Assembly: GCA_044892525.1 (NCBI GenBank) | Contig: CM097885.1 | Coordinates: 24,740,001-24,804,000, forward strand | Source: Schmidtea polychroa | Taxonomy: Eukaryota | DNA: 64,000 nucleotides | Direction of reading: 5' to 3' | Part shown: positions 61,171-61,608 of the stretch, piece by piece | Position numbering within the stretch: position 1 is the first letter of the stretch | Layout of the letters: every line of letters begins with the position of its first letter | Program-made: the position numbers and the translations under genes | The notes under the pieces: model-generated | Databases searched by the model: none | Told to the model about the DNA's origin: nothing | What the model saw: the letters and a program-made list of their open reading frames with translations, nothing else

Positions 61171-61485
61171 GCAGGAGACTCGAAGATTTCTCTTACCGCC
61201 AGGTAAGTATACAATATTGCTTATTCAACTCAATTGCATACTTTCCCTGTTACAGTGGAAATTACATCACTTTCAAATTAGCTAATTCACAGAAAAATTA
61301 TCTGCAAACTTGTAAACATAGCGTATGTTAAAATCATATTCGCGTCTGGAGACACCGTCTATACACAGAAACTGTTTGCAAGTGCATCCGTAAACCTTTA
61401 ATTTGTTATGGTAAGTATGCAATAGAGTTTAATCAACAATATTGTATACTTACCTGACGCGAAGAGAAGTCTTCGCGTCTCCTGC

Positions 61486-61527
61486 ATAGTACTGATGAGA
61501 GCCAAACGCTCGAAACTAGTCTACTAT
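61486..61527 (+). ncRNA. Minimal type I hammerhead ribozyme
   Basis: ATAGTA-CTGATGA-GAGC(CAAAC)GCTC-GAAACTAGTC-TACTAT; perfect 6-bp stem I; predicted cleavage after C61521; within repeat copy 61410-61610. Confidence 0.9.
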
Positions 61528-61608
61528 TGGGATTTGCACTGGGTATCACAAAGCTTGTAATGTTTATAATATTTATGTTAGACATCCGTAAAAAAATATT
61601 TTACTCCA

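What the first reader, a model, noticed from the sequence alone, without database searches (positions are those of the whole stretch)
61446..61560. U1 snRNA 5'-end sequence plus a hairpin sit just upstream of every hammerhead
Seen: ATACTTACCTG(G/A)CGCG at 19598 and 61446, ATACTTACCTGGCG on the - strand at 61210, and a variant at ~21952. It is followed by the hairpin G(A/G)CGCGAAGA-GAA(A/G)-TCTTCGCGTC, the hammerhead, and TTTGCACT. Established: U1 snRNA starts AUACUUACCUGGC and its U1A loop is AUUGCAC. Two inferences: (a) the RNA displays a U1-like guide able to pair with 5' splice sites next to a ribozyme, as a splicing decoy or target-recognition device; (b) the opposite strand carries a perfect CAG|GTAAGTAT donor, as in intron-bearing Penelope terminal repeats. 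The - strand copy places that donor at 61200-61210 in the sense of the ERC gene.
Basis: partly seen in the sequence, partly recalled or inferred. Interest (0 to 1): 0.7.

Follow-up and report, generated by a model that had tools for sequence, protein, structure and literature searches.

The report
Ribozyme repeat carrying a U1 tip
A very common self-cutting RNA repeat in a flatworm-like genome carries an exact copy of the first 16 letters of the cell's own U1 splicing RNA, likely captured long ago and predicted to be folded away inside the repeat rather than displayed as a guide, although its splice-site-reading core appears unchanged in a second species.

Summary
The motif belongs to one ~378-nt tandem type I hammerhead repeat (a non-LTR retrozyme; at least 1,383 copies). 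It equals nt 1-16 of a host U1 gene (18/19 for a second U1 type), including 5 nt that a splice donor would not explain. No other part of U1 is present; TTTGCAC is not a U1A loop. Genomic copies decay at background substitution rates. Contigs of a second species keep U1 nt 4-12, while the stem next to it changed at 12 of 28 positions, with compensation. In 9 of 9 natural monomers the tip is predicted paired (opening 10.7-17.6 kcal/mol; real U1 3.6), so a displayed guide (a) is unsupported for the circle. The antisense donor (b) lies in an ERC intron as stated, but is predicted masked, and the described Penelope intron lies on the ribozyme strand. Best reading: a captured U1 tip, likely kept as a two-partner structural strand. 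Open and bolder: a weak snRNA-promoter-like site at -66 could start transcription at U1 nt 1 and release a 76-nt RNA with a free tip. No stranded RNA was available. The scan noted this U1 tip before elsewhere in this genome.

The parts
61410..61567 (+). 5'-truncated retrozyme copy (unit positions 221-378); right arm of a head-to-head inverted pair
   Evidence: 94.9% to the reference unit
61446..61461 (+). U1 nt 1-16 (15 of 16 here, nt 12 is A)
61410..61457 (+). Upstream hairpin whose 3' strand includes U1 nt 1-12; predicted to hide the tip; distal stem covaries in organism B
61457..61478 (+). GC-rich hairpin opened by U1 nt 12-16 (position of U1 helix H), GAAG/GAAA loop
   Evidence: organism B 3' arm reads GAGCGC as in host U1
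61486..61527 (+). Type I hammerhead, 6-bp helix I, 4-bp helix II, minimal palindromic helix III; predicted cleavage after 61521
   Evidence: RF00163 27.4 bits, E 2.8e-4, below the gathering score 34, on family copies in L074
61533..61545 (+). TTTGCAC (not a U1A loop) and CTGGGTA, the alternative partner of U1 nt 6-12
61089..61400 (-). Inverted retrozyme copy (unit positions 63-378); U1 nt 1-14 at 61210-61197, hammerhead core from 61164
61200..61210 (+). Mirror-image perfect donor CAG|GTAAGTAT in ERC sense, inside intron 50016 to about 65685; predicted masked by the fold-back
19497..19719 (+). Retrozyme copy with exact 16-mer at 19598-19613 and a decayed hammerhead at 19644
21663..21989 (+). 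Left part of a split copy; motif at 21951 (nt 9 changed, 14-nt deletion upstream)
21990..24327 (+). hAT transposon splitting that copy; 8-bp duplication GTCTCCTG at 21982-21989 and 24328-24335
   Evidence: (PF05699 E 1.5e-13)
24328..24465 (+). Right part of the split copy, with the hammerhead at 24343

Best explanation
The motif is an exact copy of the first 16 nt of host U1 snRNA inside a ~378-nt tandem hammerhead repeat; it was likely captured once from U1, and is likely kept as a structural strand predicted to be paired inside the repeat's RNA, the antisense donor being its mirror-image by-product. Shown: family anatomy, identity to host U1, lack of the rest of U1, Penelope-type insertion pattern, persistence of nt 4-12 in contigs of a second species. 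Inferred: tandem copies are transcribed, dimeric hammerheads cut them to monomers that circularise, a Penelope-like RT/endonuclease copies them from a fixed point about 45 nt past the cut into AT-rich targets. Inferred: capture came by RT template switch onto U1 or by insertion into a U1 gene. Predicted: U1 nt 3-12 can pair either with the upstream arm or with CTGGGTA behind the ribozyme, and nt 12-16 open the next hairpin; two partners would freeze this strand without any splicing role.
For: Identity: nt 1-16 of U1a and 18 of 19 nt of U1c; after masking nt 1-19 no U1-to-unit alignment beats shuffles for 6 of 6 U1 types; the 5 nt beyond a donor have a chance of 2e-4. One family: 40 of 40 motif hits lacking an exact core are decayed copies of it. 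Hidden tip: opening nt 3-11 costs 10.7-17.6 kcal/mol in 9 of 9 natural monomers, against -11.6 for a perfect 9-bp duplex and 3.6 for real U1. The stem is real: organism B's loose-end consensus (27 contigs, agreement 0.65) aligns without gaps, with C-G to A-T and T-A to C-G double changes and nt 2 changed (read by hand). Subfamily changes fall on partner strands (unit 217, 219, 222, 287), 0 of 16 on the U1 strand. Second partner seen in 4 of 5 folds started at nt 1. The block shared with organism B runs from U1 nt 3 to the end of that partner. Insertion pattern: 245 of 306 pieces reach the fixed 3' end, 5' ends scatter.
Against: The unchanged part in organism B is the splice-site-pairing 9-mer (0 of 9 changed against 12 of 28 upstream, p 0.016; against 18 of 52, p 0.033; post hoc), while nt 2 differs and nt 13 and 16 differ in the only 5 contigs where they were read; that is what a U1-like or donor role would also predict. 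Under pure structure one expects compensation in the proximal stem as in the distal stem. 0 of 16 against 7 of 127 variable columns within this genome is not significant (p 0.43). All folds are predictions for naked RNA. B's partner arm for nt 3-12 was not seen, and read laying appears not to list differences within about 30 nt of alignment ends. No other U1 fragments that would show capture as a habit were found (4 of 4 hits are U1 genes). No autonomous Penelope sharing the module was found in 50 loci.
Confidence: 0.5

Rival explanations
1. The repeat took a U1 gene's promoter and start: an snRNA-type proximal element at -66 starts transcription at U1 nt 1, and the first hammerhead cut releases a 76-nt capped leader with a free U1-like tip on a helix-H-like hairpin, able to pair with 5' splice sites.
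For: Host snRNA genes share ATGYA at -67 to -76 (10 of 13 promoters; shuffle mean 0.75, maximum 5 of 2000). Four of 5 monomers scanned have a site at -66 scoring 5.2 bits, inside the leave-one-out range of real promoters (4.5-11.7); chance 2-5%. The match begins exactly at nt 1. In RNA started at nt 1 the tip opens for 2.5-4.3 kcal/mol. Precedent: newt satellite 2 has an snRNA promoter (one sentence in PMC2220036).
Against: The site has T where 10 of 10 real sites have A, lies 1 nt nearer than any of them, and scores 1.2 in the youngest subfamily; equal or better scores occur elsewhere in the unit; the motif was picked by eye before testing. Three of 13 promoters lack it, among them a U1a and the U1c promoter. 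No excess of insertions starting at nt 1 (9 family hits, 3 true starts, against 11 at a control position). No Sm site follows.
Confidence: 0.2
2. The tip is a hidden, switchable U1 mimic in the monomer or circle: it opens to pair with donors of nascent pre-mRNA, or its duplex with a donor-like arm stacked on a helix-H-like stem binds U1-associated proteins, which tethers the element in the nucleus.
For: Nt 4-12 kept in organism B; one subfamily's partner arm is itself donor-like, CAGGTAAAGTAT; the topology copies U1's 5' arm plus helix H, and B's 3' arm reads GAGCGC like host U1a.
Against: Opening cost equals or exceeds the gain of a perfect duplex in 8 of 9 monomers; any complement of the tip looks donor-like by necessity; donor-like 9-mers show no steady rise near insertions (0.18-0.51 per kb over all bins).
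Confidence: 0.13
3. The functional element is the antisense donor or U1-binding site CAG|GTAAGT, used in antisense or host transcripts, as the first reader's (b) proposes.
For: The 9-mer kept in organism B is also the donor consensus; antisense opening is lower in some monomers (6.1-16.3 kcal/mol); deletions across the motif are 2.4 times as common as in one control interval (28/963 against 17/1383, p 0.006), which could reflect host selection against it.
Against: Does not explain nt 12-16; selection in each mobility cycle acts on the ribozyme strand; the D. virilis Penelope intron is on the ribozyme strand; substitutions at the would-be GT are not raised (0 and 7 of about 115); the deletion excess rests on one control and a microhomology-rich, hairpin-junction interval; the ERC-intron donor is predicted masked (20.4 against 7.8 kcal/mol without the neighbour).
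Confidence: 0.1
4. Chance or convergence: a structured repeat happens to hold a U1-like word.
For: The match is short and found after the fact; the flanking hairpin top (11 nt) is equally unchanged in organism B.
Against: About 6e-8 per unit for the 16-mer; no shuffle reached the score (0 of 300); the match starts at nt 1.
Confidence: 0.04

Closest known systems
Metazoan non-LTR retrozymes (Cervera and de la Pena 2020, PMC7229834, passages read; Li, Clavereau and Pollet preprint 10.64898/2026.07.22.740005, part 1 of 5 and passages read)
   Same: Short non-coding tandem units, each with a type I hammerhead with tiny palindromic helix III; monomers, dimers and trimers; highly self-paired predicted circle; co-occurs with Penelope-like elements.
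   Different: Holds a host-snRNA segment; 'snRNA' occurs once in PMC7229834 (a reference title) and not in the preprint. Expression and circles were not shown here. No pLTR homology to an autonomous element was found.
Penelope-like element pLTRs (PMC4209133, part 1 of 4 and passages; PMC11167929, passages)
   Same: Fixed 3' end downstream of a hammerhead, variable 5' truncation, head-to-head inverted copies, AT/ATT-rich targets.
   Different: No ORF; canonical rather than minimal hammerhead; the host's intact PLE (L233, RVT_1 + GIY-YIG) has a U3-A8 minimal hammerhead and no U1 tip; the described intron is on the ribozyme strand, this donor on the opposite one.
SINEU of crocodilians (Kojima 2015, PMC4494074, passages)
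   Same: U1-derived sequence in a non-autonomous retroelement, with repeated 5' addition of snRNA sequence as precedent for capture.
   Different: SINEU has U1/U2 heads at the 5' end and poly(A) tails; here 16-19 nt sit inside a tandem ribozyme unit with no poly(A) tail.
Newt satellite 2 (Coats, Zhang and Epstein 1994; paper not held, seen only as a title and one sentence in PMC2220036)
   Same: Hammerhead tandem repeat; reported snRNA-type promoter.
   Different: Here the promoter is only a weak candidate; whether satellite 2 holds U1 coding sequence I could not check.
U1 snRNA (RF00003)
   Same: Nt 1-16 identical; hairpin opens where helix H opens.
   Different: No four-way junction, stem-loops 1, 2, 4 or conserved Sm site; no covariance-model hit.

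Membership tests
Non-LTR retrozyme | Short tandem units of a few hundred nt | tested here: met
   9 distinct cut-to-cut monomers of 367-383 nt; trimer in L074
Non-LTR retrozyme | Type I hammerhead with minimal palindromic helix III in each unit | tested here: met
   RF00163 E 2.8e-4 in 3 of 3 units, 27.4 bits, below the gathering score 34; core intact by sequence
Non-LTR retrozyme | Non-coding | tested here: met
   Frames of 100 aa or more over the copies exist only by running into ATT microsatellites
Non-LTR retrozyme | Self-cleavage and circular RNA | not testable with these tools
   Only contigs of runs of guessed type were offered
Non-LTR retrozyme | Penelope-type insertion signature | tested here: met
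   245 of 306 pieces reach the common 3' end; of 202 such ends 69 meet a microsatellite, 22 other AT-rich DNA, 61 a further unit, 50 other DNA
Penelope pLTR with intron | Homology to the pLTR of an autonomous element | tested here: not met
   50 GIY-YIG loci of 150 listed matches; only inserted family copies or weak hits; other PLE families may exist
Penelope pLTR with intron | Spliceosomal intron on the ribozyme strand | tested here: not met
   The perfect donor is on the opposite strand (PMC4209133)
U1 snRNA | 5' arm complementary to donors | tested here: met
   16 of 16 nt
U1 snRNA | 5' arm single-stranded at an RNA 5' end | tested here: inconclusive
   Predicted paired in monomers, free if the RNA starts at nt 1; start unknown
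U1 snRNA | Stem-loops 1 and 2 (U1-70K, U1A), Sm site, stem-loop 4 | tested here: not met
   No alignment above shuffles beyond nt 19; no RF00003 hit at E 1 in the window or E 10 in L074
SINEU | snRNA-derived 5' head and poly(A) tail | tested here: not met
   Internal 16-19 nt; 3' end merges with AT microsatellites
snRNA-promoter-driven hammerhead repeat (satellite 2 type) | Proximal sequence element at the host spacing | tested here: inconclusive
   5.2-bit site at -66 in 4 of 5 monomers, with a mismatch at an invariant base
snRNA-promoter-driven hammerhead repeat (satellite 2 type) | Mapped transcription start | not testable with these tools
   No raw or stranded reads

The most novel reading that the evidence does not exclude
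A retrozyme that stole the front end of a U1 gene, promoter included, is transcribed as an snRNA from U1 nt 1, and uses its hammerhead to shed a capped 76-nt mini-U1 with a free splice-site-reading tip, while the circle hides the same tip in a hairpin: a mobile element that makes a U1 mimic able to engage host splice donors.
Probability: 0.15. Interest if true: 0.85.

Novelty: new variant of a known kind. Interest (0 to 1): 0.52.

Why it matters
How animal retrozymes are transcribed, and what their conserved non-ribozyme parts do, is open. A host-U1 segment that begins at nt 1 and keeps its donor-pairing core across two species makes both questions testable with one 5'-end mapping experiment. 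If the tip is ever free, more than a thousand loci could supply a U1 look-alike to the nucleus; if it is always paired, this is still a clear case of a spliceosomal RNA fragment co-opted as a ribozyme-flanking structure. Each copy also plants a perfect antisense donor, a possible source of cryptic splicing. Searches of the held papers found no such feature: retrozyme + snRNA, Penelope + U1 snRNA + retroelement (79), ACTTACCTG + hammerhead (80, 97), hammerhead/U1/mimic/retrotransposon/planarian (75), hammerhead + proximal sequence element + retrotranspos (98). Supplements of PMC7229834 and of the preprint could not be read and may list related sequences.

Tried and rejected
No RNA holder listed; only contigs, so strand, start, circles and splicing could not be read. 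Among the loose ends and joints shown none lies at the donor, but most rows were not shown and contigs drop rare forms. Three freshwater runs laid gave 0 records. Pattern scans for a U1 tip before a hammerhead: 1 hit in viral contigs and 8 in metagenome contigs, none with hammerhead helices on reading and folding, so chance. A search for other hammerhead families with a different helix II gave only variants of this family (22 matches). Organism B's diagnostic words are absent from this genome (0 and 0). U1A-loop reading of TTTGCAC rejected. A second promoter-like word at -29 rejected because organism B has lost it. U1 pseudogenes or other captures: none by one pattern. Excess of starts at nt 1: none. 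Donor density near insertions: no trend. A cell-wise test of gaps (p 1e-25) was discarded because cells of one deletion are not independent; event counts were used instead. Orientation bias in host introns was not tested, for want of gene annotation. Coats 1994 is not held.

Full report
1. Observation. The 11-mer lies at 19598+, 61446+, 61200-61210(-) and, with one change, 21951+. Four canonical hammerheads of one family lie at 19644+, 24343+, 61164- and 61492+. The 21951 motif and the 24343 hammerhead are one copy split by a hAT element with an 8-bp duplication. The two 61-kb copies are a head-to-head pair, 159 nt and 91% complementary, in the intron between two exons that continue the Cast profile (346-403, then 404-454), so the ERC statement holds. 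TTTGCAC differs from the host's U1A loop ATTGCAC, lacks a closing stem and is predicted paired.

2. What it is. The genome has 781 Mb in four large contigs and many small ones; a planarian is my inference, not a tool result. The motif sits in a 367-383-nt unit found as fragments, dimers and trimers. Whole-genome counts: 1,026 exact cores, 1,383 copies with both 3' anchors, 1,380 exact 16-mers, U1 genes included. All 40 of 40 fetched 16-mer sites without an exact core were decayed copies of the same family. RF00163 matches 3 of 3 units of L074 at 27.4 bits, E 2.8e-4, under the gathering score. Of 306 aligned pieces 245 reach a common 3' end about 45 nt past the cut, and 5' ends scatter. This fits the non-LTR retrozymes of PMC7229834 (passages), their Penelope origin in the 2026 preprint (part 1 of 5 and passages), and the internal RT start and ATT preference in PMC11167929 (passages). 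The genome holds an intact 856-aa RT/GIY-YIG element (L233); its terminal repeat has a U3-A8 minimal hammerhead and no U1 tip. None of 50 GIY-YIG loci shares the module as its own end.

3. The U1 link. RF00003 finds 42 host matches. U1a begins with the same 16 nt; U1c matches 18 of 19; four other types do not exceed shuffles. With nt 1-19 masked nothing exceeds shuffles. Chance for the 16-mer is about 6e-8 per unit, and 2e-4 for the 5 nt beyond a donor. Descent from U1 is therefore likely. No Sm site is conserved: the one U-rich candidate lies in subfamily-variable columns 103-116.

4. Conservation. In 184 pieces from 112 hammerhead-selected loci, substitution rates in the 16-mer match the flanks (A/T 1.8% against 2.5%, p 0.19; G/C 7.1% against 5.8%, p 0.15). 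That is expected of dead copies and says nothing on the active lineage. Subfamily-variable columns number 0 of 16 in the motif and 7 of 127 nearby (p 0.43); four of them (217, 219, 222, 287) are on strands that pair with the motif. Run X6, labelled as another organism, holds a sister family alike from U1 nt 3 to just past CTGGGTA; its diagnostic words are absent here. Reading the loose-end consensus by hand, 12 of 28 upstream positions differ without gaps, two pairs change on both sides, further pairs are gained, and nt 2 differs. In five contigs read directly, nt 4-12 are unchanged, nt 13 and 16 differ, an 11-nt hairpin top is also unchanged, and the 3' arm reads GAGCGC like host U1a helix H. 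The contrast gives p 0.016-0.033, post hoc. Limits: one run, consensus agreement 0.65-0.79, a few contigs nearly identical to this genome's family, and differences near alignment ends apparently unlisted. Deletions across the motif are 2.4 times a single control (28/963 against 17/1383, p 0.006); a hairpin junction with microhomology is the simpler cause.

5. Folding. In 9 of 9 natural monomers folded as circles, nt 3-11 pair with the arm 32-40 nt upstream; opening costs 10.7-17.6 kcal/mol, against -11.6 for a perfect donor duplex and 3.6 for real U1. In RNA begun at nt 1 the tip opens for 2.5-4.3 and nt 6-10 pair weakly with the sequence behind the ribozyme in 4 of 5 copies. The antisense donor in the ERC intron costs 20.4 to open with the neighbouring copy and 7.8 without.

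6. Promoter lead. Host U1, U2, U4 and U5 genes share ATGYA at -67 to -76 in 10 of 13 promoters. Four of 5 monomers score 5.2 bits at -66, the youngest 1.2; the site mismatches an invariant base; chance is 2-5%. Insertions do not pile up at nt 1. The lead is open, not shown.

7. Mechanism. Shown: anatomy, identity, absence of the rest of U1, insertion pattern. Inferred: transcription of tandems, dimeric cleavage, circles, copying by a Penelope protein in trans, one capture of U1's 5' end (precedent for snRNA addition in SINEU, PMC4494074 passages). Predicted: the captured strand has two partners and opens a third helix, which would hold its sequence. I give this 0.5, the promoter/leader model 0.2, a switchable mimic 0.13, a working antisense donor 0.1 and chance 0.04. 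Reading (b) also has the strand against it: the D. virilis intron ends at helix I of the ribozyme (PMC4209133).

8. Verdict. A new variant of a known kind. The U1 tip was noted before by this scan at five other places in this genome; new here are the second species, the covarying stem, the accessibility contrast, the promoter test and the ERC context. The literature searches named under Why it matters found no description. Interest 0.52.

Noticed in passing
window about 61790-62150 (+): 3' fragment of the autonomous Penelope-like family of L232-L234, with a damaged U3-A8 minimal hammerhead near 62067; it shares the ATT tract with the retrozyme pair (matched by eye).
   Followed up: partly
L233 1816-4383; L232, L234: Young, intact RT + GIY-YIG Penelope-like elements (856, 812, 776 aa open frames), flanked by AAT tracts; a candidate mobiliser. 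L232 has a 1.9-kb inverted 5' part.
   Followed up: partly
L031-L040: At least six divergent U1 types; three begin AAACTTACTTGG or AAACTAACCTGG-like variants in the donor-pairing arm (AAACTTACTTGG in two, AAACTAACCTGG in two others), paired with canonical-arm types in clusters and a 1.77-kb tandem array. Variant U1s could read different donors.
   Followed up: no
Upstream of U1, U2, U4, U5 genes (L031-L040, L259-L262, L289-L298): Shared ATGYA word at -67 to -76, a candidate proximal sequence element for this organism (10 of 13 promoters).
   Followed up: partly
window 61146-61202 (+): The antisense of the ribozyme core ends in a pyrimidine-rich CTCTCATCAG 38 nt before the perfect donor, so an antisense copy could form a 38-nt cryptic exon; no use shown.
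   Followed up: no
window 50016 and about 65685: The ERC intron (15.7 kb) has a weak real donor (AAA|GTTTGT) and an acceptor whose upstream tract is an ATT microsatellite.
   Followed up: no
window 2634-11518: Long near-perfect inverted repeats (316 nt at 100%) enclose frames at 6282-10388 that look like a protein-primed DNA polymerase B (recalled resemblance, not searched): a Polinton- or Maverick-like relic.
   Followed up: no
window 12206-15479 (-) and 25641-27990 (+): Broken Gypsy-like and Bel/Pao-like retrotransposon frames (by eye).
   Followed up: no
window 28922-30312 (-): Ubiquitin-domain frame and an RNF126-like zinc-ribbon/RING frame (Pfam), possibly processed gene fragments.
   Followed up: no
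L024 upstream of the copy: The 5' flank reads like a large-subunit rRNA fragment joined to a truncated copy (recalled resemblance), a possible RT template jump.
   Followed up: no
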